A stretch of DNA of 64,000 nucleotides from a virus. Its lineage: Duplodnaviria > Caudoviricetes. How positions within the stretch are numbered: the first letter of the stretch is position 1; each line of letters begins with the position of its first letter. Below are positions 15,126-59,355 of this stretch, piece by piece. A program made the translations under genes and the position numbers. A model generated the notes under the pieces. It ran no database searches. It saw nothing but the letters and a program-made list of their open reading frames with translations, and was not told the DNA's origin. Where the stretch lies: the IMG/VR virus record IMGVR_UViG_3300037484_000435, positions 32,001 through 96,000 of that record; one strand, given 5' to 3'.

Positions 15126-15201
15126 GGTCCAGTAGCTTAGCTTGGTCTAAAGCGACGTTCTCTAAAAACGTTTATCGTAGGTTCAAATCCTACCTGGATC
15201 A
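15126..15201 (+). tRNA. amber-suppressor tRNA (anticodon CTA)
   Basis: GGTCCAG/CTGGATC acceptor; D-arm GCTT/AAGC; anticodon arm ACGTT-CTCTAAA-AACGT; T-arm GTAGG-TTCAAAT-CCTAC. Confidence 0.85.
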
Positions 15202-16168
15202 CAGGGAAAGGAAGAAAATTAAATATGTCTATCTTGGTAAAGAAAACCGAAATGAAGAGCGATAAGGAAGGAAACTACACTGTGGTTTACAACTTGATGC
15301 CTTTCAAGTGCCCAGAATGTGGGAGTGATATGACAGATAGGGCTTGGGAGCATGCCAAGGGTTATTACGATAGGAATACGGCCTATTCTTGTGATGAGTG
15401 TAGTTGCCAAATACTCACAGAGATGTATAGAAACACTGGGGCGGATAAAAACCTTGTCACATTTGTGTTGAGGTATTTTGAAAAAGCCAAAGCAGAGGGT
15501 TTGGTACAAACCAATGACTGAAAGAGAAATGTTCGAAAAATCACTTGAAAGACCTAGTAATTTTCGTAAGTTGTCCTCTGAGGAACAGTGGGACATTGAC
15601 AAACGTCTAGGAATCCTCGACTGGCAAGGTGAAGGTTTAACTGATGAAGATTGGAAAAGAATTAAGGAACATTACGAATAAATGATTAAACCCATAGCAC
15701 ATAGGCTAGACATAATAGTAAAGGGAATATATTACCATTTCAAAATCTTGATAAGAAAAGAAATGGAAGACACAGATTATATCTGGGTAATTTACTGTCT
15801 GGAGTTAGACCTTGTCACAGCAGCTAAAAACCGTTACCAAGCTTGGCGGGATATGAAGGATGTTGTGAGGGCACACATAGGCTTTGCTATGGAAAATGAC
15901 AACATGAAACACTGTTTTCATTCGGCCCCGCAGGAACTGTGGACAGATTATTTTAAAGCTGTAAGCAGGAAGAGAAAGAGAAATGGATAGTGACTCACCA
16001 GTGTTTACAACTTTAGTGCTACTCTTGCTATTTATTAGCGTAGCCTTATTCCCGATAGAGATGGTAAAGTGGTTTATACTCGGCGTCCTGTTCATCTGGA
16101 CATTCGAAATTTTTGTGTTCACGCTATTACTAATAGGATTTCTTCTAGAAAATAGAAAACAAAATAGT

Positions 16169-28026: not shown

Positions 28027-28851
28027 ATGGCCAAAAGAATTTACGCCGTTAACGACAATTATTTTGATGATTTGAACTCGGAAGGCCCCTCTTATTGGTT
28101 GGGTGTTTTGAGTGCTGATGGCTACGTTTGGGAAAACCGAAACAGCGTGAATCTAACAGTGAAAGAATCCGATCGTGAGTGGTTGGAGATGTACAAGAAG
28201 GCTCTCGGAATAGAAGCACCGATTCTGGAAGGTTATCCTAAGGGATGTATAAGAGTAATTTTTACGTCAGGGCGGATCGTTCAAAATCTGTATCGTTACG
28301 GGATACACCAGAAAAAGTCACTTGATTTATGTTTTTGTCAAGATGTTACAGAACAACAAGTAAGGCATTATATTCGTGGGTTAATAGACGGGGATGGCTC
28401 TCTCACACTCACAAATAGGTCATGTATGATTTCCTTGACAGGAACTGAGGATATTACGTCACGTGTTGCTAGTTATTTGGCAAGGTACACAACAAAGAAT
28501 AGCCAGAAGTTACGCTCAAAAAATTTAGTGCGTAAAAAACACCAAACTAAAAATACTTTTTGTGTAAGTTGGGGTGGGCTACAAAATGTATCGGGAATTA
28601 TAGAACATCTCTATAATAAATCTGATTATTTTCTACTAAGAAAAAAAGAGATTGCACAAAAAATGACTTCTCAAGCAAGTGTTGATATACATAACCAATC
28701 TAGTATGTATTCAGACCTGACGGGGGAAGACTTAATGGATTTTTACAAGGAGCACAAGAGTTGGAGAGGAGTCGCAAGATTTTTAGGTGTGAGACACTGT
28801 GCTTTTATTGATTATAAAATCAAAGTTCTAGGAAGAGAAAAAAGAAAATGA
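28027..28851 (+). CDS. LAGLIDADG homing endonuclease (double motif)
   Basis: YWLGVLSADG and YIRGLIDGDG motifs. Confidence 0.88.
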   Translation: MAKRIYAVNDNYFDDLNSEGPSYWLGVLSADGYVWENRNSVNLTVKESDREWLEMYKKALGIEAPILEGYPKGCIRVIFTSGRIVQNLYRYGIHQKKSLDLCFCQDVTEQQVRHYIRGLIDGDGSLTLTNRSCMISLTGTEDITSRVASYLARYTTKNSQKLRSKNLVRKKHQTKNTFCVSWGGLQNVSGIIEHLYNKSDYFLLRKKEIAQKMTSQASVDIHNQSSMYSDLTGEDLMDFYKEHKSWRGVARFLGVRHCAFIDYKIKVLGREKRK

Positions 28852-28926
28852 CGGATAGCGGTAGTCAAGCGTTACTTCTTACAATTGGTGTAAACACAAA
28901 GCCACGCTGACAATCAACTTCTTCCG
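28851..28926 (+). ncRNA. structured repeat unit 1 (short insert)
   Basis: ACGGA/TCCGT terminal stem; TAGCGGTAG; GTTACTTC; 3' CAATCAACTTCT. Confidence 0.6.
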
Positions 28927-28980
28927 TTTATCCCGCACGTGGCTCCTAAGCGGGTTAACAATTTGGAGTTTAGAGAAATG

Positions 28981-29057
28981 ATGGGTAGCGACAGCGGTCG
29001 GGTTACTTCTATATTATGTAAATATAACCAAAGCACCCCCGCGATACCTTCTCCCAT
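28981..29057 (+). ncRNA. structured repeat unit 2
   Basis: ATGGG/CCCAT stem; TAGCGAC; GGTTACTTC; 3' GATACCTTCT. Confidence 0.6.
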
Positions 29058-29067
29058 TAACAAGAAT

Positions 29068-29213
29068 ACCGAGTAGCGGTAGAGAGGACTTCTTCATTTG
29101 TTTATATCACAAACGGCCTGGGTTCGAGTCCCAGTGGTCACCCCAAAAATCTATGGTGGCCATAGCTCAACTGGTAGAGAAAAAAGTTATGCCTTTCGAT
29201 TCATTCTCTCGGT
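29068..29213 (+). ncRNA. repeat unit 3 with circularly permuted tRNA body (His-like acceptor)
   Basis: ACCGAG/CTCGGT stem; T-arm CTGGG-TTCGAGT-CCCAG (29118-29134), 3' acceptor TGGTCAC-C-CCA, linker, then 5' acceptor (G)GTGGCCA and D-arm TAGCTCAACTGGTAGAG. Confidence 0.75.
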
Positions 29214-29225
29214 AACAAATAGAAT

Positions 29226-29289
29226 TTAGGTGGCGTCGTAAGAGTTACTTCTTGGAAATGAAAAACACTCTTACAACAACTTCCCCTGA
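29226..29289 (+). ncRNA. structured repeat unit 4 (minimal unit)
   Basis: TTAGG/CCTGA outer stem, TGGCGTC, perfect inner stem GTAAGAG/CTCTTAC, TTACTTC, 3' AACAACTTCC. Confidence 0.65.
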
Positions 29290-29325
29290 TTCATAACAAG
29301 TGTGTCACACGAGTGTTCTTTGAAA

Positions 29326-29604
29326 TTTGAGTGGCGTGAACGAGGAGTACTTCTATACTTATAAAGACAAAAGAAGTGACGATCGTAGCTTCAAGGTGCC
29401 CAAAAGGCACGCGACAGAACGATCCGTGAAATAGTTGCACGTAAATAAATGACTCAGGCAAGCACACCTGATAAACGACTCAGACAAGATTTCCATCTGT
29501 ATGAAATTGGAATCTGTGCTAACGACTACCATAAAAATAGTGGTAGCTGATTTCGGCACATAATAAAATGAAATCAGGTCTCCTTATTCAAACATTCCCT
29601 CAAA
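29326..29604 (+). ncRNA. structured repeat unit 5 (large multi-hairpin insert)
   Basis: TTTGA/TCAAA stem, GTGGCGTG, AGTACTTC, 3' AAACATTCCC. Confidence 0.55.
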
Positions 29605-29656
29605 GAAAAGTCCTGAGCAGACTCTAAAATGTTCATTGTGTGTTTCCTTTAAAACT

Positions 29657-29754
29657 GTATCAGCGGTGATCGATTCGGCTACTTCATTTATAAGATGACC
29701 ATCTGGCTTAATTCGCCAGATAACAATAACCGAATCAAATAGCTACCCTGATAC
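29657..29754 (+). ncRNA. structured repeat unit 6
   Basis: GTATCAG/CTGATAC and GATTCGG/CCGAATC stems, CTACTTC, insert hairpin ATCTGGC-TTAATTC-GCCAGAT. Confidence 0.65.
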
Positions 29755-29854
29755 CCAAGAACGAAAAAGGGAGTCTGGTCTGATCAATTGGGCGAACCTG
29801 TGGGTCCTTTTCTGCAGGAGGGACTGCCAGTAAAAAACGAGTGCGTCATTATTA

Positions 29855-29920
29855 GGTTGTGTAGCTCAGTAGGAGAGCGTCTGTAGTGGAAGGTCAAGGG
29901 TGCGAGCCCCTTCACGACCG
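29855..29920 (+). ncRNA. tRNA-like element with shrunken anticodon arm
   Basis: GGTTGTG/CACGACC acceptor, D-arm GCTC-AGTAGGA-GAGC, T-arm AAGGG-TGCGAGC-CCCTT; only 17 nt between D and T arms. Confidence 0.6.
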
Positions 29921-29991
29921 AAAATGCCTATATCTCAGTCAAGTAACTGGCAACACCGCTGTGGTCCTAGCGTAATTTGGCCAAGAACAAA

Positions 29992-30055
29992 TGGGACTGA
30001 CCTTGGCGGTTACGGGGATGGCCATCCGTAGTCGGTTCGATTCCAGACCGTCCCA
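29992..30055 (+). ncRNA. degenerate tRNA-like element
   Basis: TGGGAC/GTCCCA acceptor-like stem, GGTTCGATTCC T-loop, TACGG/CCGTA central stem. Confidence 0.45.
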
Positions 30056-30150
30056 CAAGAAACGAAATGTGTGGAAAAATAATTACCCTCTTAAACAGGG
30101 CCCAATAGGGAAGGAAGACGTTCCTTAATATTAAAACAGTCCACACAGAA

Positions 30151-30260
30151 TATTGAGCGGTGATTTTGAGAGTTACTTCAAACCATGAATCTTGACTACT
30201 GTGGTTCGAGTCCACGTTGACGGGCGGGTGCCCTTTCTCTCATTCAAGCTTCCCTCAATA
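30151..30260 (+). ncRNA. repeat unit 7 with T-arm insert
   Basis: TATTGAG/CTCAATA and TGAGAG/CTCTCA stems, TTACTTC, T-arm GTGG-TTCGAGT-CCAC. Confidence 0.65.
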
Positions 30261-30509
30261 CAAGTAAGTTTCGACGTCAGTCAGTAACTGTCAATAGGAC
30301 TTAATGAGTGCACAAGGTTCTGACTTTCGGAGATAAGGATGGAGTCCCCAGCAACGACGGTTGCCTTGTAACGGGATGTCTGGTCGCAGCGGGAGGCGTA
30401 GTCTCCCCCATCCAACTATATGCCACTTGGTTGCTAGCGTATCTAGCTGAGAACAGCAACGCCCAACTAAGTCCCATAGAGGGATAAAAATTATAATGAA
30501 GGCATTAAA

Positions 30510-30704
30510 CTGGGTCTCAGCCCCCAGTATAAAGAACTGGTTGGGTGGCGGAAGAAAGTAAAGGACACTCAGCCTTTACTACCTCTGGGTCTTAACCCTC
30601 AGGCTAAAGAATTGGTTAAGTGGCGGCGAATAGGGACCTGTGCCAACTCGTCCTGACTTCCTCTGGGTCTCAATTCCCAGGCTAAAGAACTGATTGAGTG
30701 GTGG
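30510..30704 (+). repeat. three 42-nt direct repeats with pseudoknot potential, separated by 33- and 36-nt hairpin spacers
   Basis: repeats at 30510-30551, 30585-30626, 30663-30704; consensus CTGGGTCTyArYyCyCAG.CTAAAGAAyTGrTTrrGTGGyGG. Confidence 0.8.
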
Positions 30705-30825
30705 GGAGGGAAAGCGTTTACCAAAACGCCGCACCCCAGTCTGCTCGACTTAAAGAGCATGGTGCCTTGAAGCCTTGGTTAATTTCCAAAAGAGCAGTAA
30801 GCTTAACAGCAGATGGGCACATTTT

Positions 30826-30930
30826 AATCGAGTGGTGATAAGTGAGGTTACTTCTAAACTAAATTATCATTTTTAAACAAAAAAGATAAAGACCTCGGGA
30901 GATTGCATGATTCAACAATTTCCACCTGTT
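30826..30930 (+). ncRNA. structured repeat unit 8 (boundaries uncertain)
   Basis: GAGTGGTGAT, GAGG-TTACTTC (30846-30854); ACCTC downstream; closing stem unclear. Confidence 0.45.
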
Positions 30931-31153
30931 TACAGGCGTCTACGGTCTGTGCGAGAAACGAGCTTGCTCGGCTAGAGGCACATTAAATAAAGATAGCGCA
31001 GTAATACTTCACTAATGGCTTCCCTCGATATTAAAGCCCCAGACCTGAGTAAGTCAGCAATGAAACTACTCCACCGACAAGAGGCTGTGCTACGATGTAG
31101 GCAGGGTGTAAAACTTCCTCTCTCAAGAAAAATATTACTTTGAAGATAGGTAA

Positions 31154-31960
31154 ATGGGGAAGAGACTCTACACTGTTAATGACAATTATTTTGATGATTT
31201 GAACTCAGAGGGACCATCTTACTGGTTGGGTGTCCTGAGTGCAGATGGGTATATTAGGGGTAACAGTATAAATCTCACTGTCAAAGAAGCTGATATTGAA
31301 TGGCTTACCTTATATAAAGAGGCTTTAGAGATTGAGGCTCCGATCCAAAAAGGACCAAAGGGATGTATTCGCGTCGTCTTTACCTCTAAACGTGTTGCTC
31401 AAAACTTGGTGTCCTACGGACTTGTGCAAAGGAAATCACTAACACTATCATTTTGTAGACAAGTTCCCGTTCCTCAAGTAAAACACTACGTCAGAGGACT
31501 AATAGACGGCGACGGGTCTTTGAGTCTGTCAAGTAAGATAGTCAGAATTGGCCTCACAGGAACCAAAGACATTGTTACATGTACAGACAATTATCTACGC
31601 CAATTTACAACTGCACGGAGCCAATTGAGACGCTCTTCCCGTTCAGTGGGTAAGGAATCTGGTGTTAACAAAGCATTTAGAGTTAATTGGTGTGGACGGC
31701 AAAATGTCGGGCAAATTGTCAAGCATCTCTATAACGAGTCCTCCTACTTTTTAGGTAGAAAGAAAATGTTAGCTGACAAAATAATCAAAGCAAACAAGAA
31801 TACAAAAGAAGGAATTTGTGAACATCTTTCAGAAACTGACCTTAAATCATTGTATTTTGTGCACGGCAGTTGGAGAAAAGTTGCGAGGGAATTGGGTATA
31901 AGTCAAAAAACATTTTCTGATTACAAAATAAAGATGATCGGAAAAGATAAGGTCTGTTAG
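31154..31960 (+). CDS. LAGLIDADG homing endonuclease (paralog of 28027..28851)
   Basis: near-identical N-terminus VNDNYFDDLNSEGPSYWLGVLSADG; YVRGLIDGDG. Confidence 0.88.
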   Translation: MGKRLYTVNDNYFDDLNSEGPSYWLGVLSADGYIRGNSINLTVKEADIEWLTLYKEALEIEAPIQKGPKGCIRVVFTSKRVAQNLVSYGLVQRKSLTLSFCRQVPVPQVKHYVRGLIDGDGSLSLSSKIVRIGLTGTKDIVTCTDNYLRQFTTARSQLRRSSRSVGKESGVNKAFRVNWCGRQNVGQIVKHLYNESSYFLGRKKMLADKIIKANKNTKEGICEHLSETDLKSLYFVHGSWRKVARELGISQKTFSDYKIKMIGKDKVC

Positions 31961-32026
31961 CATAGCGGCTAGTGCGCCACGTTGTCAGCGTGGATTACGT
32001 CGGTTCGAGTCCGATACAGACCGCCA
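31951..32026 (+). tRNA. tRNA-Asp(GTC), overlapping the LAGLIDADG stop codon
   Basis: GGTCTGT/ACAGACC acceptor, G73-CCA; CCACG-TTGTCAG-CGTGG. Confidence 0.93.
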
Positions 32027-32037
32027 AAAGAATTTAG

Positions 32038-32216
32038 CTGAGTGGCGTTACATATAGCTACTTCATAACGGTCCTAAGGTTAGGCTTTGATTGCAAAGCA
32101 CTATTATCGACTGCTAACCTTAATAGGTTAGTTAGGATGGCCGCAAACCCGACGCAATCCGTGTTAGAGGCACGTTAAATAGGGTAGTTCATGCTTTATG
32201 GACAGGCTTCCCTCAG
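32038..32216 (+). ncRNA. structured repeat unit 9 (large insert)
   Basis: CTGAG/CTCAG stem, TGGCGTT, CATATAG/CTTTATG inner stem, CTACTTC, 3' GACAGGCTTCC. Confidence 0.55.
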
Positions 32217-32294
32217 ACACAAGAAAATAAATAACTTACCTCTTACCTAAGTGAGACGAAAGTTTCAAAACACTTATGCAGAGAGGTAAGGAAA

Positions 32295-32903
32295 TTGAAT
32301 ATTAAAAGAGAAGAAGCCTTATCCAGTTATTATAAAGACCCGTCGGTTTGCCAGCATTGTGGGCAAATTATAGGGGTTAAGGATAAGCAAAAAATAAATG
32401 AGGTCAAGAAGAAGAAGTTCTGCGATCGGTCTTGTGCGGCAAAATATAACAACTCTGCTTTTCCAAAGCGAAATCCTACTAAGGTAGTGCTTTGTAAAAA
32501 CTGTGGAAAAGAAGTTAAATTAACACCCCGTTCTAACTCAGTTGGTGGCTACATAAAGAGAGAATTTTGTAATGAGTGTAAACATCTAAACATAGGCAAA
32601 AGCGGGAAGTACTCAGACTTGGGTACGCTGACTAAGGGAGAACTGAAGGAGTTATTCCCAACATCGTGGAGATCACTAATAAGTTACAATGCTAGGTGTG
32701 TATATTTGCCCCGCGGGTTAGAAGAACCAAATTGTTATTTATGTGATTATGATAGTCACGTTGATGTTTGCCACATCAAGGCAGTTTCTAAATTTGGAGC
32801 ATCTGCTAAAATTGAGGAAATCAATTCCCCAGACAATCTAGTCTTTCTATGCCCGAACCATCATTGGGATATGGACCACGGCAAAGTCTGTGTTTTGAAA
32901 TAA
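32295..32903 (+). CDS. HNH homing endonuclease (family copy 4)
   Basis: YYKDPSVCQHCG..KKFCDRSC; CYLCDY..VDVCHIK...LCPNHHWDMD. Confidence 0.8.
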   Translation: MNIKREEALSSYYKDPSVCQHCGQIIGVKDKQKINEVKKKKFCDRSCAAKYNNSAFPKRNPTKVVLCKNCGKEVKLTPRSNSVGGYIKREFCNECKHLNIGKSGKYSDLGTLTKGELKELFPTSWRSLISYNARCVYLPRGLEEPNCYLCDYDSHVDVCHIKAVSKFGASAKIEEINSPDNLVFLCPNHHWDMDHGKVCVLK

Positions 32904-32979
32904 TTTAGCGTTGCACTCCTGTAAGTAATTCGTGAGAGAATATCTAGGGTGCTATTTGGCAACGCGGTAGCACCACTAC

Positions 32980-33089
32980 GGGACGGTAGTTGCTATGAAA
33001 GAACATCTCTTGATTAGGGAAGAAATTAGTTCTAGACAAAGAACATCTCTAAAGGAGAAGAAAGTGTGGTTTAATTCCCATACGTCCCA
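32980..33089 (+). ncRNA. tRNA-like element with expanded centre
   Basis: GGGACG/CGTCCC acceptor-like stem, T-like hairpin GTGTGG-TTTAATTC-CCATAC, centre contains AAGAACATCTCT twice. Confidence 0.4.
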
Positions 33090-33365
33090 CAAGTTACGTA
33101 CTCGGTTACGAACTGGCGGAAGGGCTAATTATTGCAGATCGCGAAATCTCTGTGTATTAATTAGTCTCTAGAGACAATGGCCAGCAAACCACCTCTAGCG
33201 TCTTGTCGGTACGACGTAAAACAATCCGAAGCGGTTACGGTGTTCACTGATAACTTGGTTTGGTCCCAGTTTCTATTCCACAAAAACTCGGGGGTTTACT
33301 GCTTAACCAAAAACAGCGGGGATTTCGGTTGTGTTTATCCAGAAAAACACACCGCGCAATAATAC

Positions 33366-33516
33366 TTACGTAGCGGTGAATGAAGGGTTACTTCAAAGTA
33401 AACAGTCCCGAAAGGGTGCAGGTATCGAATCCTGCCGTTCTGTAATAGGAACGTGGCGGAAGTGGTTTAAATAGACGCACTGTAGTATCAACCTTTCAAA
33501 TAGCTTCCCTATGTAA
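33366..33516 (+). ncRNA. repeat unit 10 with permuted Leu-type tRNA body
   Basis: TTACGTAG/CTATGTAA stem, GGTTACTTC, ACAGT/ACTGT anticodon-stem equivalent, V-arm CCC-GAAA-GGG, T-arm GCAGG/CCTGC, acceptor hairpin CGTTC/GAACG, Leu-like D-arm TGGCGGAA...TAGACGC. Confidence 0.75.
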
Positions 33517-33526
33517 CAAGAATCTT

Positions 33527-33624
33527 TTGTGGTGGCGGTGGTTAAGGATTTCTTCTAAAAGTGCCTTGGAAAAGCACAGGAGGTGTAAGAGATTTCCATA
33601 TGCCTTACCGAATTATCCCCACAA
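33527..33624 (+). ncRNA. structured repeat unit 11
   Basis: TTGTGG/CCACAA stem, TGGCGGTG, TAAGG/CCTTA inner stem, ATTTCTTC. Confidence 0.6.
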
Positions 33625-33632
33625 TACAGAAA

Positions 33633-33772
33633 TTTCATGGCGGCGTCAGTAATCGGTTACTTCCTCGTTTAAAGGTGTGGTCACAGGTTCGAGTCCTGTC
33701 GCGGTCCCAGCGGATCGTGTAGCTCAGTTGGCAGAGCACATTGTTACCGTTACACCCAGTTACCCCATGAAA
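33633..33772 (+). ncRNA. repeat unit 12 with permuted tRNA body
   Basis: TTTCATGG/CCATGAAA stem, GGTTACTTC, T-arm ACAGG-TTCGAGT-CCTGT, acceptor CGCGGTCC-CAGC-GGATCGTG, D-arm TAGCTCAGTTGGCAGAGC. Confidence 0.78.
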
Positions 33773-33952
33773 CAAATCAGACGGCGTTTAAAATCATCTC
33801 CTAGGGAAACCTAGGAACGCCGACCAGTTTGGGAAAAGGTTCGTGGCCAGAATACCATTGCAAGACAGGGACGAAGTGATGGGTAAGAAGCTGGAATGTT
33901 GGATATTAGAAAGAGTCCCCCAACATGCTTCACCTTTTCCTAATAAAAATAA

Positions 33953-34111
33953 ACTAGGCAGCGGCAGAGATGGATACTTCATAGGAACCGCCGTCCTGAA
34001 ATACGGACATGTAGGTGCAAGTCCTACCTGCTCCCCAACATCTATGGGAGCAGTGGTGAAATTAGTATACACAGCGGTAAGTAAGACACCTTCTCAAACT
34101 TTTCTCCTAGT
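33953..34111 (+). ncRNA. repeat unit 13 with permuted Leu-type tRNA body
   Basis: ACTAGG/CCTAGT stem, GATACTTC, CCGC/GCGG, V-arm GTCC/GGAC, T-arm GTAGG-TGCAAGT-CCTAC, acceptor CTGCTCCC/GGGAGCAG, D-arm TGGTGAAATTAGTATACAC. Confidence 0.78.
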
Positions 34112-34189
34112 AACAAGAAATCTGCGGAGACGTATTGCCTCTAAACCAAGGTAGGGAACGTTTGCTCCTAAGCCTTGGGCAGATAGAAA

Positions 34190-34340
34190 TATTGAGTGGC
34201 GATAGAAAGGATTTCTTCATCCAATCTTTCGGTCGTAGGTTCGAGTCCTACTGCTCCTTCGTTGTTTACAGCGTGGGGAGTGTAGCTCAGTTGGCAGAGC
34301 AAAAGACAATAATAGTGCCTTTCGATTTTTACCCTCAATA
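34190..34340 (+). ncRNA. repeat unit 14 with permuted tRNA body
   Basis: TATTGA/TCAATA and GAAAGG/CCTTTC stems, ATTTCTTC, TCTTT/AAAGA, T-arm GTAGG-TTCGAGT-CCTAC, extended acceptor hairpin, D-arm TAGCTCAGTTGGCAGAGC. Confidence 0.78.
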
Positions 34341-34579
34341 ACACTAGCGGGTCACTTCAGCCTGTTATCGACCCGCTCAACCAAAACATAATGGGCTCGC
34401 TCGGCCACAGAGCGATAGAATAGTGGCGATTTAGCTTTTATTTTTTTAGACAAATGGCTAGGACTAAATGGGCATACGCTACCGCTCCTGATTCTCGATG
34501 GAGGACATAAGGGTGCCATTGCGAGCTTTGACAAAAGCAAAGCCAAGAGGTAGTAGTTCTAGCCACAAGATAAATCAGT

Positions 34580-34654
34580 GATCCCATCGTCTAGAGGCCA
34601 GGATACATGGTTCTCAGCCATGAGACAGGAGTTCAAATCTCCTTGGGATTGCCA
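34580..34654 (+). tRNA. tRNA-Glu(CTC)
   Basis: CATGG-TTCTCAG-CCATG; G73-CCA. Confidence 0.92.
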
Positions 34655-34663
34655 AAAAAGATG

Positions 34664-34781
34664 AAGGCGTAGCGACCGAATGGGTTACATCAATGGTTAA
34701 TAAACAATCCTAATAAGACTGTTTTAAACGGTTCGAATCCGTGCTCGCAAGAGCTATACCTGTTCAATATATTCTCGCCTT
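34664..34781 (+). ncRNA. repeat unit 15 with T-arm and mini acceptor hairpin
   Basis: AAGGCG/CGCCTT stem, TAGCGACC, GGTTACATC, ACGG-TTCGAAT-CCGT, GCTC-GCAA-GAGC. Confidence 0.62.
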
Positions 34782-35096
34782 TTTAAATGAACCATTAGAA
34801 ATTGCCTCTGACCGTCCGAGCGTTTCGACGGGCCAACGGGATGACGAGGCAGAATTGTGGAATTACATCATTAGGCTACGACCTCACCGCCGGTCAGAAA
34901 TTCTATCTACACACCTAACCACGATATAGAATTACTGAACCAGCGGAGACGACAGCCGCCTAAAGATTCCATTTTGTAATGGTTACAACAAGAAAAATAG
35001 ATGCATTAAGGAGTGGGTTATAACTTTGTTATAACGATTCCCTCCCGCTCACTAACGAGCAGGTAAATATTTCCCCTTAAAAGGAGGCACAACATT

Positions 35097-36683
35097 ATGG
35101 CTAGATTCAACGTAACACCGGAAAATCCCCGTAAGACTGTCAATCATGAAGGAGCTTTGGCTTGGAGCATGACAGATGATATGCGTCTGTATGCGACCGC
35201 CGCCACCTCAACCCTGTCAGGCAAGTTCTATGAGCCCGCCAGCCCAACAGAACGTGTGAAGGGTCGAAGAGGTCGTAGCTATGGCTCTAGTGACTACGAC
35301 AAGAAAGCTGAGATGGAGAGGGTAAAGAAAATCATAGCGATGTGCGACAAATGTTCTCCAGACTTTGTTGCAAACCTCGCTGAGTACATTCGTTCAGATA
35401 TGTACCTGCGTAGCGTTCCTATGGTTATGCTTGTATCCTTGGCTCAACGCGGGGCCCTCAAGCGACAGAGTGTGTCTAGGGTCGTTCAGCGTCCGGACGA
35501 AATCACGGAGCTGCTCGCCATCTGGCAGGCAGTAAGTGGTAGGTCCGCATTGAAGAAAATGCCTAACGCCTTGAAGAAAGGTATTGGTGATTGCTTCAAT
35601 AAGTTCGACGCTTACGGCTTCAGGAAATATAACCGAGGCGGAAAAGGTGCTGTAACGTTCCTCGATGCAATGAGGCTTACGCACCCGTCTCCCAGGTCTG
35701 AAGAGCAGAACGCAACATTCCAAGCGATCAAGGATGGAACACTTCCTCCTATTGAAACTTGGGAAACCATGATTTCTGCGGCGGGCCCAGATGCGGACGC
35801 TAAAAGGAAAGCATGGGAACACCTGATCGATCAGGGTGCCAAGGGTCTTCCCTACATGGCTGCTCTGAGGAATATCAGGAACATCTTGCAGGCTGGCGTC
35901 AGCGGAGCACATATGCAGAAGCTGGTAGCCGAGTTGACGGACCCGAATCTGATTGCGAAAAGCAAGCAGTTCCCGTTCCGTTGGCACTCCGCCTACAAAA
36001 TGTTGCGTGAGGAGCTCCAGAAGATGGGTAGTCCTTATTTCAAGGCAGTCATGGACGCTTGTGAAAAGGCTATCGTGTCCTCAGTTGTGAACATTCCCGG
36101 TTTCGATGAGATTCAGGATAAGAGGTTCCTGATTGCATGCGACACTTCTGGGTCTATGCAGGACCTATTCTCCACGAACTCCACGGTAAAGCGTTACGAG
36201 ATCGCACTGACGTTGGGGCTTTTGCTTCAGCAGAAGTTAAATTTCGTTACGATTGGTGCTTTTGGAGAGACGTGGAAAGTGTATCCCCCTTCTCCTGTGG
36301 TCTTGTCTGCTGTTGGAACAACGGTAGGTAAGATTGGTGAAGTGGGTCACGCAACCAACGGATACAAAGTTATCAAGTGGGCAAGAGACACGAAGACAGT
36401 CTACGACTACATCGTGCTGTTCTCTGACTTGCAACTTTGGAATTCCCACAGCATGGGTAACAGCCCAGAGACCTTCAGCTCGGAATGGGAACAGTATAAA
36501 CGAGATGTCAACCGAGATGCTCGCTTGGTGCTCTTTGACCTCGCTGGCTACGGCACGACTCCCGTTGATGCTGTGCGTAAGGACGTCTTCCTGATTGCTG
36601 GCTTCTCTGAGAAGATATTCCAAGTTCTTCCAAAGCTGGCTGAAGGACAGAAGTTCTTGCAGCAGTTCCATCGTCCTGTTTAG
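35097..36683 (+). CDS. Ro60/Rsr ortholog (TROVE domain plus VWA)
   Basis: TVNHEGA, LAEYIRSDMYLRSVP, VQRPDEITELL, KGIGDCFNKFDAYGFRKY, LTHP, ETWE, LPYMAALRNIRNI, SKQFPFRW..AY, IACDTSGSM; AGGAGG RBS. Confidence 0.93.
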   Translation: MARFNVTPENPRKTVNHEGALAWSMTDDMRLYATAATSTLSGKFYEPASPTERVKGRRGRSYGSSDYDKKAEMERVKKIIAMCDKCSPDFVANLAEYIRSDMYLRSVPMVMLVSLAQRGALKRQSVSRVVQRPDEITELLAIWQAVSGRSALKKMPNALKKGIGDCFNKFDAYGFRKYNRGGKGAVTFLDAMRLTHPSPRSEEQNATFQAIKDGTLPPIETWETMISAAGPDADAKRKAWEHLIDQGAKGLPYMAALRNIRNILQAGVSGAHMQKLVAELTDPNLIAKSKQFPFRWHSAYKMLREELQKMGSPYFKAVMDACEKAIVSSVVNIPGFDEIQDKRFLIACDTSGSMQDLFSTNSTVKRYEIALTLGLLLQQKLNFVTIGAFGETWKVYPPSPVVLSAVGTTVGKIGEVGHATNGYKVIKWARDTKTVYDYIVLFSDLQLWNSHSMGNSPETFSSEWEQYKRDVNRDARLVLFDLAGYGTTPVDAVRKDVFLIAGFSEKIFQVLPKLAEGQKFLQQFHRPV

Positions 36684-36728: not shown

Positions 36729-36819
36729 GGTAGCCGTTGACGAATTGGTAGAGTCGCTGGGTTGTGGCCCCAGTGGGAAGTTCCTTCCCTTGAGAGTTCG
36801 AACCTCTCCGGTTACCCCA
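36729..36819 (+). tRNA. tRNA-His(GTG) with G-1 and 18-nt variable arm
   Basis: G-1:C73, CTGGG-TTGTGGC-CCCAG, V-arm GGGAA/TTCCC, CCA. Confidence 0.9.
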
Positions 36820-56617: not shown

Positions 56618-58859
56618 GTGCGACGAGAAGTTTCGATAATGATTCCGTAATGGTTATTGCATTAGAATGCTTTAACTTAAACGGCCATCAAACTGCTGGT
56701 GCGTGCCTAGGGAAGCATGCGTTTATACATCATGTGTATAGGGGTGTGAAGCCTTCCTAACAATGTACCGAAACCTGCTAGCATTTAAGTGGATTAGGGC
56801 TAGGCAAAAAAAAAGTAATATGGTTAACGAAAGTGAACTGCTGTTTAAATTCCGTCAATGACAACAAGCCAAACATGCTGATAGGCTTGAACCAAAAGGT
56901 AAATGGGTAAACATAAATTTTCCTTCTATTTATGTTGCAGTTAATACTCCCATCGGAAAAGAGGCAGAACCTAAGTTACTCAAATTTATCATTATTGGAA
57001 AACTCGGTAAACCTGTTGAGGGGTTAGTGTATATGCATTAACACACCTGAGAGCAATCGGAGGTTATCTCTCAGCAGGTAAAGGATGTAGTAAAAAGCGA
57101 ATGCCTGCTTGTAACGAGCAGGATAGTTGATTTAATGTTGGTGGCGAAGAGAGTTGCACCCTTTGGGGAAAGCAGGCACGCTAAAACGTGTTGAATCGCA
57201 CCATCTGAAAGGGTGGGGACGTGGGTTCGAATCCTACCCAACATTATCATTCAATACTACGAAAGTAGGCTGACTTACTACTGGTCTCTCACTGCAGGAG
57301 CTTCTTGCAGATAACAAACTTTTGGAGGTACGCATTATGAATATACACAATAGTGTAGATTTGGCAACTTCCAGCAAATTCTCGACGTGGAGTCCAATTG
57401 AATTGGAAGAAGTCGAGAAGTTTGTTAGGAAACTGCAAGTTGCAATTGCAGAAGCAACTAAAGCTAGAAAATGGCATGAGGTTAGAAAACTCCAGTTCAA
57501 GCTGGTCAATTCTTTCCGTGCAAAATTACTCGCGGTTAAAGTTGTAACATCAAACAAAGGTAAAAACACTCCAGGTGTTGATGGTCAAACTTGGAATAGT
57601 AAAGCAGAAAAGCTGAATGGTGCCATAAGTCTTACGGCAACTGGGTATAAACCCTCCCCGTTAAGACGAGTAGAAATTCCAAAAAGAAACGGGAAAACGA
57701 GACCCCTAGGAATTCCTACCATGCGAGATCGAGCAATGCAGTATCTCTATAAACTCGCTTTAGAACCTGTTGCTGAAATTTTGGCAGATAAGGATAGTTA
57801 TGGGTTTCGTCCCAAACGCAGTTGCCAAGATGCAATAGACCAATGCTTCATCGTGTTTAGCAAGAAGTGGTCTGCCCAATGGGTTCTAGAAGGTGACATA
57901 GAGAAATGCTTTGATAAGATTTCGCACGAATGGCTACTAAACAATGTAGTAATGGATAAAACTATTTTAGGTAAATGGCTGAAGGCAGGGTTTGTGTGGA
58001 ACGGAGAATTATTTCCTACTGACGAGGGTACACCTCAAGGTGGGATTATATCACCTATTCTAGCAAATCTTGCTTTAGACGGCATTGAAGCTGAGCTAAC
58101 GTCTAAATTTGGAAGAAAAAGTGTAAGAAGAGTATCTCTTAAATTAAACGTTGTAAGATACGCAGATGATTTCATAATCTCCTGTTCTGATAAAGATGTT
58201 CTGGAAAAGGAAGTGAAACCTTTACTGGACAAATTCCTAGAGCAAAGAGGTTTGAAATTATCTGAAGAGAAAACAAAGATTACTCACATTGATGATGGAT
58301 TCGACTTTCTTGGATTTAATATCCACAAATATAAAGGAAAGTTACTCATCAAACCCGCTAAGAAGTCTGTCATCAGATTTCTGAGAGAAGTGAAAGAAAT
58401 CTTTAACTCTAATAAAACAATGATTCAAGGGGATATGATTCTGTTACTTAATCTGAAAATAAGGGGGTGGTGTAATTACTATAGGCACGTTGTGTCTGGT
58501 GATGCATTCTCCTACGTAGGATTTAGACTCTGGCAAATGTGCTGGAGATGGAGTGTTCGTAGGCATCCTAATAAGAGTAAGACATGGGTCAAAGATAAGT
58601 ATTTTAAGTCTGTAAAAGGAAGTAATTGGAGATTTGCGGATTTTGAAACAGAGGACTACCTAATAGTTCCTGCTTCTATACCTATCGAAAGACACATAAA
58701 GATTTTAAAGGATGCAGAAGTATTTAACCCCTCGTGGAACAAATACTTTGAAGAAAGATAAAGTTTGATGTTATTGAGAGGCTTGAGCTGTATGCGGTGA
58801 AAGTCGCACGTACAGTTCTTAGGGGAGGGTGGGCTAGTAATAGTCTGCTCTTACCCGAC
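56618..58859 (+). mobile_element. group II intron 1 (IIB/chloroplast-like) encoding RT/maturase
   Basis: 5' GTGCG; domain V GAGCTGTATGCGGTGAAAGTCGCACGTACAGTTC; domain VI ending CCCGAC; EBS1/IBS1 match. Confidence 0.92.
57322..58761 (+). CDS. ltrA: group II intron reverse transcriptase/maturase, no HNH endonuclease domain
   Basis: RT0 TPGVDG, RPLGIPT..DR, SYGFRP.RSCQDA, EGDIEKCFD, GTPQGGIISP, YADD, FDFLGF, domain X RGWCNYY. Confidence 0.95.
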   Translation: MEVRIMNIHNSVDLATSSKFSTWSPIELEEVEKFVRKLQVAIAEATKARKWHEVRKLQFKLVNSFRAKLLAVKVVTSNKGKNTPGVDGQTWNSKAEKLNGAISLTATGYKPSPLRRVEIPKRNGKTRPLGIPTMRDRAMQYLYKLALEPVAEILADKDSYGFRPKRSCQDAIDQCFIVFSKKWSAQWVLEGDIEKCFDKISHEWLLNNVVMDKTILGKWLKAGFVWNGELFPTDEGTPQGGIISPILANLALDGIEAELTSKFGRKSVRRVSLKLNVVRYADDFIISCSDKDVLEKEVKPLLDKFLEQRGLKLSEEKTKITHIDDGFDFLGFNIHKYKGKLLIKPAKKSVIRFLREVKEIFNSNKTMIQGDMILLLNLKIRGWCNYYRHVVSGDAFSYVGFRLWQMCWRWSVRRHPNKSKTWVKDKYFKSVKGSNWRFADFETEDYLIVPASIPIERHIKILKDAEVFNPSWNKYFEER

Positions 58860-59355
58860 CTTCCCCCAATTCAAAGAAGATTTTGGGCAAAATCTGCTTA
58901 GCCCGAAACCATCTGAGAAAATAATAGAATGGCAAAAGGCTGGTCTTCTAAAGCGGTATATCCAGCCATTAGATAAATGTGTAGGAGTATTACAAGATAC
59001 AAAGTTTCATGTTGACGATGTATTTCAACATTGCATAAAGACATGCGATAACGTGCCTCCCATCTTGAGTCTAAGGTGGGCAGGGCTGTTACATGATACA
59101 GGAAAGGTGCCAACACGAGGTCATCACATACTATGTGGTTTAACCTATCCAAAGGAAAAGAAGGTTGTTTCATATTGTCGACGTAAAAAGAAGAGATGTT
59201 CCGCCAAATGTGAACATGCTATTGAGCGAATAACATTCTACAAACACGAGCTGGCTAGTGAGAAACTAGCAAAGGCAGTGCTAAAGATGTTTAAGGTGGA
59301 CCCTCAAGTATATGCAGAGGCAATGGGCCTGATCGCGAACCATATGTATATGTAT
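58860..59355 (+). CDS. exon 2: HD-domain segment resembling CCA-adding/poly(A) polymerase C-terminal region; 496 nt, one base out of register
   Basis: LLSPKPS.., GLL..YI..LD.C.GV.Q..K.H..DVF.H, WAGLLHDTGK, FYKHE..S, LIANHM. Confidence 0.7.

What the first reader, a model, noticed from the sequence alone, without database searches (positions are those of the whole stretch)
29068..34340. Five circularly permuted tRNA bodies grafted onto the scaffold in place of the anticodon loop
Seen: units 3 (29068), 10 (33366), 12 (33633), 13 (33953) and 14 (34190) contain tRNA parts in the order [anticodon-stem 3' strand], variable arm, T-arm, 3' acceptor, short loop, 5' acceptor, D-arm, [anticodon-stem 5' strand], so the 3' half precedes the 5' half. 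The donors differ: His-like (G-1:C73 plus CCA) in unit 3, Leu-like D-arm and long V-arm in units 10 and 13, generic class I in units 12 and 14. Units 3 and 13 share a similar linker (CCAAAAATCTAT / CCAACATCTAT). No anticodon triplet is retained. Established: D. radiodurans Yrn1 has its termini in the Ro stem and a loop-closed acceptor stem; permuted tRNA genes are known in some algae and archaea. Inference: repeated independent capture of tRNA elbows as mimics (decoys for tRNA-targeting defences, or baits for RNase P, modification enzymes or ribosome factors), or precursors cleaved in the acceptor loop to give two-piece RNAs with CCA ends.
Basis: partly seen in the sequence, partly recalled or inferred. 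Interest (0 to 1): 0.88.

Follow-up and report, generated by a model that had tools for sequence, protein, structure and literature searches.

The report
Phage Y RNAs carrying rearranged tRNA look-alikes
Five small RNA genes just upstream of a giant phage's Ro60 gene each contain a real, conserved tRNA look-alike with its 3' half placed before its 5' half; this is the known YrlA design of bacterial Y RNAs, here in unusually many and varied copies, some with a built-in CCA end.

Summary
Units 3, 10, 12, 13 and 14 each carry: strand of an anticodon-like stem, (variable arm), T arm, 3' acceptor strand, loop or linker, 5' acceptor strand, D arm, closing strand. Re-ordered in silico, four of five are called tRNAs by ARAGORN; 0 of 2000 shuffles are. 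A related megaphage has orthologues with 12 compensatory and 0 disruptive stem changes.

The architecture is not new. It defines YrlA, the tRNA-like Y RNA bound by bacterial Ro60/Rsr and described in print as a circularly permuted tRNA with a loop-closed acceptor stem. A Ro60 gene (TROVE+vWA) lies directly downstream, and Rfam YrlA hits units 12 and 14 below its threshold. RNase P cleavage plus CCA addition is already shown for M. smegmatis YrlA.

What differs from published cases:
- There are 5 modules here and at least 7 in the relative, inside arrays of 15-20 Y-like RNAs.
- One subclass has a 7-bp acceptor, an encoded N73-CCA and a spacer like this phage's inter-tRNA spacers. Unit 3 also has G-1:C73, the tRNA-His marks.
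- Two modules are class II-like.

Function is inferred: Ro60-tethered tRNA mimics, with the CCA subclass probably cut by RNase P. No RNA data exist. This scan has noted similar Ro-linked arrays in other genomes. Verdict: new variant of a known kind.

The parts
28851..34790 (+). Array of 15 Y-RNA-like units (U1-U15). They share an outer helix, a bulged 5' GCGG/GGCG motif, UACUUC, a 3' CUUCCC-like strand and a UAACAAG-like tail. Three homing-endonuclease genes, two tRNA genes and a truncated tRNA-like gene (29855-29920) are interspersed.
   Evidence: Motif scan, folds, sequence, Pfam for the LAGLIDADG and HNH genes.
29067..29214 (+). Unit 3 (whole). The outer stem TACCGAG/CTCGGTA changes by a compensatory pair in the L001 orthologue (TACTGAG/CTCAGTA).
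29089..29186 (+). U3 tRNA-like module:
- connecting strand 29089-29095
- hairpin TTTGT/ACAAA with 7-nt loop, 29097-29113
- 4-nt variable loop
- T arm 29118-29134
- 3' acceptor strand 29135-29141
- C73 at 29142
- CCA 29143-29145
- spacer AAAATCTAT 29146-29154
- G-1 at 29155
- 5' acceptor strand 29156-29162
- D arm 29165-29180
   Evidence: ARAGORN on the re-ordered halves, ARAGORN on the native order, orthologue L001:2403-2499 with compensatory changes in the T, acceptor and hairpin stems, partial Rfam YrlA match.
33366..33516 (+). Unit 10 (whole).
33399..33484 (+). U10 class II-like module:
- anticodon-like strand 33402-33405
- variable arm CCC-GAAA-GGG 33407-33416
- T arm 33418-33435, with an 8-nt loop
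- 6-bp acceptor hairpin 33436-33453
- D arm 33456-33478
- closing strand 33480-33483
   Evidence: The minimum-energy fold is the permuted cloverleaf. In orthologue L001:7610-7699 the variable, T and D arms are nearly identical, while the acceptor is replaced by a different hairpin. ARAGORN does not call it.
33633..33772 (+). Unit 12 (whole).
33673..33743 (+). U12 canonical YrlA-type module:
- variable loop TGGTC
- T arm 33683-33699
- 8-bp acceptor closed by the CAGC tetraloop, 33700-33719
- D arm 33722-33737
- closing strand 33739-33743
   Evidence: Rfam YrlA 38.2 bits, ARAGORN on the re-ordered halves, genome scanner.
33953..34111 (+). Unit 13 (whole).
33987..34078 (+). U13 class II-like module:
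- anticodon-like strand 33987-33991
- variable arm 33993-34008
- T arm 34011-34027, loop TGCAAGT
- 3' acceptor strand 34028-34034
- C73 at 34035
- CAA + CATCTAT 34036-34045
- G-1 at 34046
- 5' acceptor strand 34047-34053
- 3-bp D arm 34056-34072
- closing strand 34074-34078
   Evidence: ARAGORN on the re-ordered halves, minimum-energy fold with z = -2.8, orthologue L001:8136-8226 with compensatory changes and an encoded C-CCA.
34190..34340 (+). Unit 14 (whole).
34225..34306 (+). U14 canonical YrlA-type module:
- anticodon-like stem TCTTT/AAAGA
- variable loop CGGTC
- T arm 34235-34251
- acceptor extended to a 12-bp hairpin, 34252-34282
- D arm 34285-34300
   Evidence: Rfam YrlA 38.8 bits, ARAGORN. 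Orthologue L001:8784-8851 has a 7-bp acceptor closed by TTCG and five compensatory pairs.
35097..36683 (+). Ro60/Rsr orthologue (528 aa, TROVE + Ro60 vWA). It is the only TROVE gene in the genome.
   Evidence: Pfam, whole-genome search, homologues.
30157..30262 (+). Unit 7: the same handle, with a T arm only (30200-30216). This is YrlB-like.
34666..34785 (+). Unit 15: the same handle carrying a tRNA body in native order (D loop, anticodon-like arm, T arm, GNRA hairpin). The handle replaces the acceptor stem, which is the Yrn1-like orientation.
   Evidence: Alignment with L001:9575-9725. Rfam tRNA matches L001:9612-9667 at model positions 8-63 with 37 bits.

Best explanation
The five elements are the effector domains of YrlA-class Y RNAs encoded by a 545-kb megaphage.

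Shared design. Each RNA has a handle: an outer helix formed by its 5' and 3' ends, with a bulged pyrimidine and a GG/CC step. This handle is inferred to bind the phage Ro60 ring, whose gene lies directly downstream. The inner end of the handle continues through an internal loop into an anticodon-like stem. That stem carries a tRNA elbow (D arm plus T arm) and an acceptor helix, so the RNA chain passes through a tRNA L-shape in permuted order.

Two subclasses.
- Closed-acceptor modules (U12, U14, U10) are like Salmonella YrlA. They are inferred to serve as handles for tRNA-recognising proteins such as modification, processing or repair enzymes or nucleases, bringing them to Ro60.
- CCA-spacer modules (U3, U13 and four in the related phage) have a 7-bp acceptor, N73, an encoded CCA and an 8-11-nt single-stranded spacer that resembles this phage's inter-tRNA spacers. 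They are inferred to be cut by host RNase P at the 5' acceptor strand and trimmed to CCA, as shown for M. smegmatis YrlA. The product would be a two-piece Y RNA held together by the acceptor and handle helices. U3 would then present the G-1:C73-CCA set of tRNA-His.

Transcription and role. The array sits in the phage tRNA island and is probably made and processed with the tRNAs. The likely role is RNA surveillance or repair, or control of tRNA-directed enzymes, during infection, alongside the phage's own RtcB ligase and CCA-adding enzyme.

Shown: the sequence anatomy, structural conservation, linkage to Ro60 and resemblance to YrlA. Inferred: Ro60 binding, processing, partners and role.
For: - Ro60 (TROVE+vWA) lies directly downstream on the same strand and is the only such gene in the genome.
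- Rfam YrlA matches U12 and U14 over the full model at 38 bits. Tandem-tRNA junctions in the same genome score 16-18 bits.
- ARAGORN recognises four of five re-ordered modules and 0 of 2000 shuffles.
- Orthologues exist in a phage whose Ro60 is 80% identical. Of 83 stem pairs compared, 59 are the same, 10 change on one side, 12 are compensatory and 0 are broken.
- Across 12 modules, stems pair in 93% of cells with a covariation score of 0.80, against 0.26 in shuffles.
- T and D arms are nearly invariant while acceptor, anticodon-like and variable parts vary. Wang et al. describe the same pattern for YrlA.
- N73-CCA plus a spacer recurs in six modules. The spacer AAAATCTAT resembles the tRNA-Asn/tRNA-Asn spacer GAAAATCTAA and the tRNA-His leader CTCTAT-G.
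- M. smegmatis YrlA, which has a 7-bp acceptor, is cut by RNase P and receives CCA in vivo (PMC4201824).
- A phage Ro60 binds phage-encoded Y-like RNAs and host PNPase in vitro (PMC12135203).
- The phage encodes RtcB and a CCA-adding enzyme.
Against: - No RNA data exist: no public RNA run holds the stretch. Expression, ends and cleavage are therefore unknown.
- The Rfam YrlA scores are far below the gathering score (38 against 69 bits). The Rfam alignment does not place the Ro-binding stem on the true handle.
- The handle's 5' motif only loosely resembles the published GNCGAAN0-1G motif.
- U10 has an 8-nt T loop. U13 has G55 and lacks the G18-G19 doublet, so their elbows may not form canonically.
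- CCA is degenerate (CAA) in U13.
- No effector of any YrlA tRNA-like domain is known, so the 'recruitment' step has no precedent with a named partner.
- RtcB and the CCA-adding enzyme lie about 100 kb from the array.
Confidence: 0.72

Rival explanations
1. Decoys or baits. The modules act mainly as substrate mimics that soak up or misdirect host tRNA-targeting defence nucleases or tRNA-modifying enzymes. Ro60 would serve only to stabilise them.
For: - Several different tRNA types are mimicked in one array.
- The phage invests heavily in tRNA supply and repair: 39 tRNAs, RtcB and a CCA-adding enzyme.
- tRNA-directed defences are an established pressure on phages (general knowledge).
Against: - Four of the five modules lack an anticodon loop, which is the usual target of anticodon nucleases.
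- The U3 hairpin loop is not conserved between orthologues (TTATATC against TTATGAC).
- The most conserved parts are the elbow arms, not nuclease target sites.
- No defence gene or target was identified here.
Confidence: 0.12
2. Non-functional debris. The modules are leftovers of tRNA genes scrambled by recombination and homing-endonuclease activity in a tRNA island.
For: - The region is rich in LAGLIDADG and HNH genes and in tandem tRNAs.
- Tandem tRNA junctions can mimic YrlA to a search model (the same caveat is raised in PMC4201824).
Against: - There are 12 compensatory and 0 disruptive stem changes between orthologues that are 71-81% identical.
- The acceptor strands of each module pair with each other through loops as tight as 4 nt, which is not expected of junctions between two different tRNAs.
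- Every module is framed by the same conserved handle.
- Such modules occur only upstream of Ro60 in 545 kb.
Confidence: 0.04
3. Permuted tRNA genes. The modules would be matured into decoding tRNAs by circularisation (for example by the phage RtcB) and re-cutting, as in Cyanidioschyzon merolae.
For: - The 3' half precedes the 5' half, joined at the acceptor ends, with flanks that pair.
- The phage encodes RtcB.
- U3 retains an anticodon-arm-like hairpin.
Against: - U10, U12, U13 and U14 have no anticodon loop.
- The U3 'anticodon' differs between orthologues (ATA against ATG) while G-1:C73 is kept. That would recode, so a decoding role is unlikely.
- Closed 4-nt acceptor loops (U12, and the L001 orthologue of U14) leave no room for CCA.
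Confidence: 0.03
4. Processing punctuation. The tRNA-like folds exist only to attract RNase P or RNase Z so that a long precursor is cut into individual Y RNAs.
For: - There is no excess of promoter-like or terminator-like sites in the array, which suggests a polycistronic precursor.
- Real tRNAs are interspersed among the units.
Against: - The modules lie inside each unit, enclosed by its handle helix, not between units.
- Ten of the 15 units lack a full module.
- Closed-acceptor modules are poor RNase P substrates: Chen et al. detected no cleavage of Salmonella YrlA (6-bp acceptor stem per Wang et al.), in vivo or in vitro.
Confidence: 0.05

Closest known systems
YrlA (Rfam RF02553), the tRNA-like Y RNA of Salmonella Typhimurium and more than 250 bacteria and phages, bound by Rsr/Ro60; crystal structure PDB 6CU1 (Chen et al. 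2014, PMC4201824; Wang et al. 2018, bioRxiv 10.1101/312249)
   Same: - It lies next to a Ro60 gene.
- The 5' and 3' ends form the protein-binding helix.
- The order is anticodon-like stem, variable loop, T arm, loop-closed acceptor stem, UA, D arm.
- T and D arms are conserved, while acceptor, anticodon-like and variable parts vary.
- The literature describes it as a circularly permuted tRNA.
   Different: - There are five modules per genome here, and at least seven in the relative, against one per locus in the published cases I could read.
- The modules sit within arrays of 15-20 handle-sharing RNAs.
- The handle motif differs from GNCGAAN0-1G.
- Some modules are class II-like, with long variable arms.
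- Some modules encode CCA plus a spacer.
- Scores are below the Rfam threshold.
Mycobacterium smegmatis YrlA (Chen et al. 2014)
   Same: It has a 7-bp acceptor stem. It is cut by RNase P and carries CCA in vivo, giving two halves that both stay with Rsr. This is the direct precedent for the proposed fate of U3 and U13.
   Different: - There, CA is added after cleavage; here the full CCA is encoded and followed by a spacer like an inter-tRNA spacer.
- U3 also has G-1:C73, the tRNA-His marks.
- Processing is not tested here.
Thermus phage phiLo phiRo60 with Yrl1 and Yrl2 (PMC12135203)
   Same: A phage-encoded Ro60 has Y-like RNA genes just upstream. The RNAs bind Ro60 and host PNPase in vitro.
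   Different: Only two RNAs were reported, and in the passages I read no tRNA-like domain was described for them. Its Ro60 is 28% identical to this one.
Deinococcus radiodurans Yrn1
   Same: It is a Ro60-bound Y RNA with tRNA-like T and D features.
   Different: Yrn1 keeps the native order (D, anticodon-like arm, T). That matches unit 15 here, not the five permuted modules.
Circularly permuted tRNA genes of Cyanidioschyzon merolae and Thermofilum pendens
   Same: The 3' half precedes the 5' half. The acceptor ends are joined by a short linker and the flanks pair with each other.
   Different: Those genes mature into decoding tRNAs with an anticodon. Here four of five modules lack an anticodon loop, and the one hairpin in that position is not conserved in its triplet.

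Membership tests
YrlA (RF02553) | Encoded next to, and co-oriented with, a Ro60/Rsr (TROVE) gene | tested here: met
   The array ends about 300 nt upstream of the TROVE+vWA gene at 35097-36683, on the same strand.
YrlA (RF02553) | Domain order: anticodon-like stem, variable loop, T arm, acceptor-like stem closed at its end, two-nucleotide connector, D arm | tested here: met
   All five modules have this order. In U3 and U13 the acceptor is closed by a 10-12-nt linker containing CCA rather than by a tight loop.
YrlA (RF02553) | Conserved tRNA tertiary nucleotides (U8, A14, G18-G19, T54-T55-C56, A58, pyrimidine 48) | tested here: inconclusive
   These are present in U12, U14 and U3 by reading the sequence. 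U10 has an 8-nt T loop. U13 has G55 and AG in place of G18-G19.
YrlA (RF02553) | Score at or above the Rfam gathering threshold (69 bits) | tested here: not met
   Scores are 38.8 bits (U14), 38.2 bits (U12) and 18 bits (U3, partial). U10 and U13 are not reported.
YrlA (RF02553) | Ro-binding helix with the GNCGAAN0-1G motif on the 5' strand | tested here: inconclusive
   The handle has a bulged helix with GGCG or AGCGG followed by an A/G-rich stretch, for example GGCGATAG in U14. This is similar to the published motif but not the same.
YrlA (RF02553) | Bound by Ro60; modified by TruB and DusA | not testable with these tools
   This needs immunoprecipitation and modification mapping.
Canonical tRNA | Cloverleaf in native 5'-3' order with an anticodon loop | tested here: not met
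   There is no Rfam tRNA match on any of the five units. The single ARAGORN call, on U3 (29073-29145), is a marginal hybrid with two acceptor mismatches.
Permuted tRNA genes (algal or archaeal type) | All tRNA parts, including a conserved anticodon, are present so that a decoding tRNA can be rebuilt | tested here: not met
   Four modules have no anticodon loop. The loop triplet of U3 differs between orthologues.

The most novel reading that the evidence does not exclude
The CCA-spacer modules may be living intermediates of the proposed 'dimeric tRNA' origin of YrlA: the 3' part of one tRNA, its CCA, a genuine inter-tRNA spacer, then the 5' part of the next tRNA. After RNase P cleavage, U3 would become a two-piece, Ro60-tethered RNA presenting a complete tRNA-His acceptor identity (G-1:C73-CCA). 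Host HisRS could then charge or be captured by it. That would be an aminoacylatable Y RNA linking Ro60 surveillance to a specific synthetase.
Probability: 0.15. Interest if true: 0.8.

Novelty: new variant of a known kind. Interest (0 to 1): 0.55.

Why it matters
The effector bound by the tRNA-like domain of YrlA is still unknown, and the origin of that domain is debated. These two megaphages offer a natural panel of 5-7 different tRNA-like domains on one common Ro60 handle: canonical, class II-like, His-marked, closed or CCA-ended.

This makes three questions directly testable:
- Which tRNA features matter for partner binding?
- Are some Y RNAs processed, or even charged, like tRNAs?
- Did YrlA arise from tandem tRNA transcripts?

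It also shows that standard annotation misses most of these RNAs. Rfam at its threshold finds none, and ARAGORN produces one false tRNA-Tyr call.

Tried and rejected
- Close relatives of the Ro60 gene were sought in IMG/VR and in JGI metagenome contigs. None was usable.
Covariation therefore rests mainly on one related phage lineage, plus a fragment of a third.
- No public RNA run holds the stretch, so expression and RNA ends could not be examined.
- ARAGORN does not call re-ordered U10, nor four of the seven L001 modules. My stem boundaries for those may be imperfect.
- A donor search among the phage's own 39 tRNAs, both whole and by halves, found only generic similarity. 'Capture from a specific phage tRNA' is therefore not supported.
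- The promoter and terminator scan shows no enrichment.
- Three published Ro60-encoding phages were checked with Rfam. Arthrobacter phage Atuin has one clear partial YrlA match (31.7 bits) and a weaker one (24.6 bits, in the range of tandem-tRNA junctions); LR745206 and Vibrio phage phiTY18 have none.
- I did not build a custom covariance model, because the MAFFT alignment of class I and class II modules was not structurally clean.
- The resemblance of the U3 5' half to E. coli tRNA-His is from memory only and was not tested.
- Two reviews (PMC10870794, PMC6047535) are not held, so the dimeric-tRNA model is cited through Wang et al..

Full report
**Setting**

The window is bases 32001-96000 of a single 545-kb virus record with 42% G+C. 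The record carries 40 ARAGORN tRNA calls, clustered around its ends, and comes from a sediment metagenome.

The ORF at 35097-36683 (+) is a Ro60/Rsr orthologue: TROVE at E 2.6e-22 and Ro60 vWA at E 2.3e-9. It is the only TROVE gene in the genome.

Upstream, 28851-34790 holds 15 co-oriented units that share a 5' motif, GCGG or GGCG followed by UACUUC. Each folds so that its 5' and 3' ends form an outer helix. Two LAGLIDADG genes, one HNH gene, two ordinary tRNA genes and a truncated tRNA-like gene (29855-29920) are interspersed.

**Checking the observation**

Reading the sequence and the folds, each of U3, U10, U12, U13 and U14 has the same order. This runs from a strand of an anticodon-like stem, through a variable loop or arm, T arm, 3' acceptor strand, loop or linker, 5' acceptor strand, U8-N9 and D arm, to the closing strand.

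- I joined the 5' half to the 3' half through an artificial 7-nt loop. ARAGORN then draws normal cloverleaves for U3, U12, U13 and U14 with three different loops.
- None of 2000 constructs with shuffled halves is called.
- U10 is not called, because it has an 8-nt T loop and a 6-bp acceptor. Its minimum-energy fold is nevertheless the permuted cloverleaf.
- A purpose-built scan of both strands of the genome for 'T arm, complementary 7-nt acceptor strands, U8, D arm' returns U12, U13 and U14, one tandem tRNA-Leu junction and two weak hits. Shuffled genomes give about 0.8 hits per strand.

The permuted bodies are therefore real, non-random and confined to the Ro60-proximal array.

**Conservation**

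The closest Ro60 with readable DNA (80% identity, P0003) lies in a 658-kb contig and in two further ENA assemblies (L001-L003). Its upstream 8 kb holds about 20 units with the same handle.

Orthologues of U3, U10, U13 and U14 are found at 71-81% identity. The alignments show compensatory changes in the T, acceptor, D, variable and anticodon-like stems. Of 83 compared pairs, 59 are unchanged, 10 change on one side, 12 change on both sides and none is broken.

- The acceptor of U10 is replaced wholesale by another hairpin, while its variable, T and D arms stay almost identical.
- The 12-bp acceptor of U14 corresponds to a 7-bp stem closed by TTCG.

L001 holds at least seven permuted modules, three of them without a counterpart in the window. 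The arrays therefore gain and lose units.

Over all 12 modules, RNAalifold recovers the T and acceptor helices, and 9 of 11 pairs show double changes. Pairing is 93% against 67% in shuffles and 42-53% in slid controls. The covariation score is 0.80 against 0.26, reached by 0 of 500 shuffles.

Independent assemblies and Logan contigs exclude an assembly artefact for U3, U13 and U14.

**What it is**

Rfam's YrlA model (RF02553) aligns end to end with U14 (38.8 bits) and U12 (38.2 bits), and with the L001 orthologue of U14 (39.8 bits). It aligns partly with U3. These scores are below the gathering score of 69. They are well above the 16-18 bits that tandem tRNA junctions reach in this genome.

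The literature describes YrlA as follows:
- It is a Y RNA encoded next to Rsr/Ro60.
- Its effector domain has T, acceptor-like and D stem-loops.
- It folds as a tRNA L-shape.
- Its T and D stems are highly conserved, while its acceptor, anticodon and variable parts are variable (PMC4201824; bioRxiv 10.1101/312249).

That is the pattern seen here.

**Two subclasses**

*Closed acceptor.*
- U12 has 8 bp closed by CAGC.
- U14 has a 12-bp hairpin.
- U10 has 6 bp with a 6-nt loop.

*CCA-spacer.*
- U3 reads TGGTCAC-C73-CCA-AAAATCTAT-G(-1)-GTGGCCA.
- U13 reads CTGCTCC-C73-CAA-CATCTAT-G(-1)-GGAGCAG.
- In L001, the U3 orthologue has C-CCA, the U13 orthologue has C-CCA, m8943 has G-CCA-CAAATCTAT and m9776 has C-CCA-AAAACAAT.

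The spacer resembles real spacers and leaders of this phage's tRNA genes. The tandem tRNA-Asn genes are separated by GAAAATCTAA. The true tRNA-His is preceded by CTCTAT-G(-1) and ends in C73-CCA-AA.

This fits the published proposal that YrlA arose from dimeric tRNA transcripts, with the T arm from the first tRNA and the D arm from the second. Here the junction still looks like a tRNA-to-tRNA junction.

M. smegmatis YrlA has a 7-bp acceptor, is cut by RNase P and carries CCA in vivo. By analogy, I infer that the CCA-spacer modules are processed into two-piece RNAs.

From established knowledge (not tested here), G-1:C73 is the hallmark and main HisRS identity set of bacterial tRNA-His, and RNase P leaves G-1 in place. 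The phage has no HisRS or PNPase-type gene of its own. It does encode RtcB and a CCA-adding enzyme elsewhere.

- *U3 hairpin.* The U3 hairpin (5 bp, 7-nt loop) is followed by 4 nt (5 nt, AGGTT, in L001) before the T arm. This is anticodon-arm plus class I variable-loop geometry, and it explains ARAGORN's spurious native call tRNA-Tyr(ata) at 29073-29145. Topologically the hairpin can also be read as a long variable arm; I cannot decide between the two. Its loop triplet differs between orthologues (ATA against ATG), which argues against decoding.
- *U13 identity.* U13 is class II-like, but it has C73 and G-1 and shares the TCTATG leader with the phage's own tRNA-His. That tRNA-His is itself class II-like, with a long variable arm. 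The phage's tRNA-Leu genes have A73.
- *Donors.* No module has a near-identical donor among the phage tRNAs. U12 and U14 share an identical D arm and T loop. 'Independent capture' is therefore unproven.

**How it probably works**

*Shown:* the modules are conserved structured RNAs of YrlA type on a common handle next to Ro60.

*Inferred:*
- The handle binds the phage Ro60.
- The tRNA-like domain engages tRNA-recognising proteins.
- The CCA-spacer class is cut by RNase P and ends in CCA.
- The array is transcribed with the tRNA island. There is no excess of promoter-like or terminator-like sites.

A phage Ro60 is known to bind phage Y-like RNAs and host PNPase in vitro (PMC12135203).

Rivals (decoys, debris, true permuted tRNA genes, processing punctuation) are weighed in their own section. 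Debris and decoding tRNAs are disfavoured by the covariation and by the missing or unconserved anticodons.

**Novelty**

Published phage cases that I could read report one or two Y-like RNAs. Of three deposited Ro60 phages checked, one has a clear partial YrlA match plus a weaker one in the tandem-junction range, and two have none.

Three things go beyond what I found described:
- five to seven tRNA-like domains per genome within arrays of 15-20 units;
- class II-like modules;
- encoded N73-CCA plus an inter-tRNA-like spacer, with His marks.

Earlier notes of this scan, unchecked by me, report similar Ro-linked arrays with permuted tRNA mimics in other genomes. Multiplicity as such may therefore be widespread, if unpublished. 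I file this as a new variant of a known kind.

Noticed in passing
window 29855-29920 (+): A tRNA-like gene in native order, with good acceptor, D and T arms. Its anticodon arm is cut down to about 7 nt. Rfam tRNA scores 45 bits, above threshold, but ARAGORN is silent. It lies inside the Y-RNA array.
   Followed up: partly
window 34666-34785 (U15) and L001:9585-9710: A handle-bearing unit that carries a tRNA body in native order (D loop, anticodon-like arm, T arm, then a GNRA hairpin). The handle replaces the acceptor stem, which is the opposite topology to the five permuted modules and resembles Yrn1. In L001, Rfam tRNA matches model positions 8-63 at 37 bits.
   Followed up: partly
window 30157-30262 (U7): A handle-bearing unit with a T arm only (TGTGG-TTCGAGT-CCACG) and no D arm, like YrlB.
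   Followed up: no
L001:4205-4281: A 77-nt stretch in the related phage's array matches the two ends of the Rfam tmRNA model (39.7 bits, E 4e-13). It may be a mini tmRNA-like tRNA domain. The window has a possibly similar element near 29985-30050, ending in CCGTCCCACA.
   Followed up: no
window 36730-36819 and other tRNA genes (5565, 36829, 43732; genome 506785, 506878, 484029 in window numbering): Several apparently genuine phage tRNAs of normally class I isotypes are 83-91 nt long. The tRNA-His clearly has a long variable arm (GGGAAG-TTCC-TTCCC) and a Leu-type D loop. There is also a CUA-anticodon (amber suppressor) tRNA at 15126-15202.
   Followed up: partly
window 30500-30760: Three successive segments of about 70 nt are similar to each other (…CTGGGTCT…CCCAGG…AAGAACTGGTTGGGTGGCGG…). 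Each ends in a handle-like GTGGCGG motif. They may be further small units. Tandem Repeats Finder did not report them.
   Followed up: no
3' end of most units, e.g. window 29213-29219, 33515-33521, 34110-34116: A conserved single-stranded tail, UAACAAG or UAACA, follows the outer helix directly. A conserved UACUUC follows the second handle stem. Neither has an explanation yet; they may be processing or protein-contact sites.
   Followed up: no
G000:C1:473977-475053 (-) and 480894-481271 (-): The phage encodes RtcB, matched in two pieces within one 400-aa frame, and a 531-aa CCA-adding-type nucleotidyltransferase. These are the same functional partners that accompany rsr-yrlA in the Salmonella RNA repair operon, but they lie about 100 kb from the array.
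   Followed up: partly
window 28027-28851, 31154-31960, 32295-32903; 56685-61486: Two paralogous LAGLIDADG genes and an HNH gene are inserted between Y-RNA units. Two group II introns lie further downstream.
   Followed up: no
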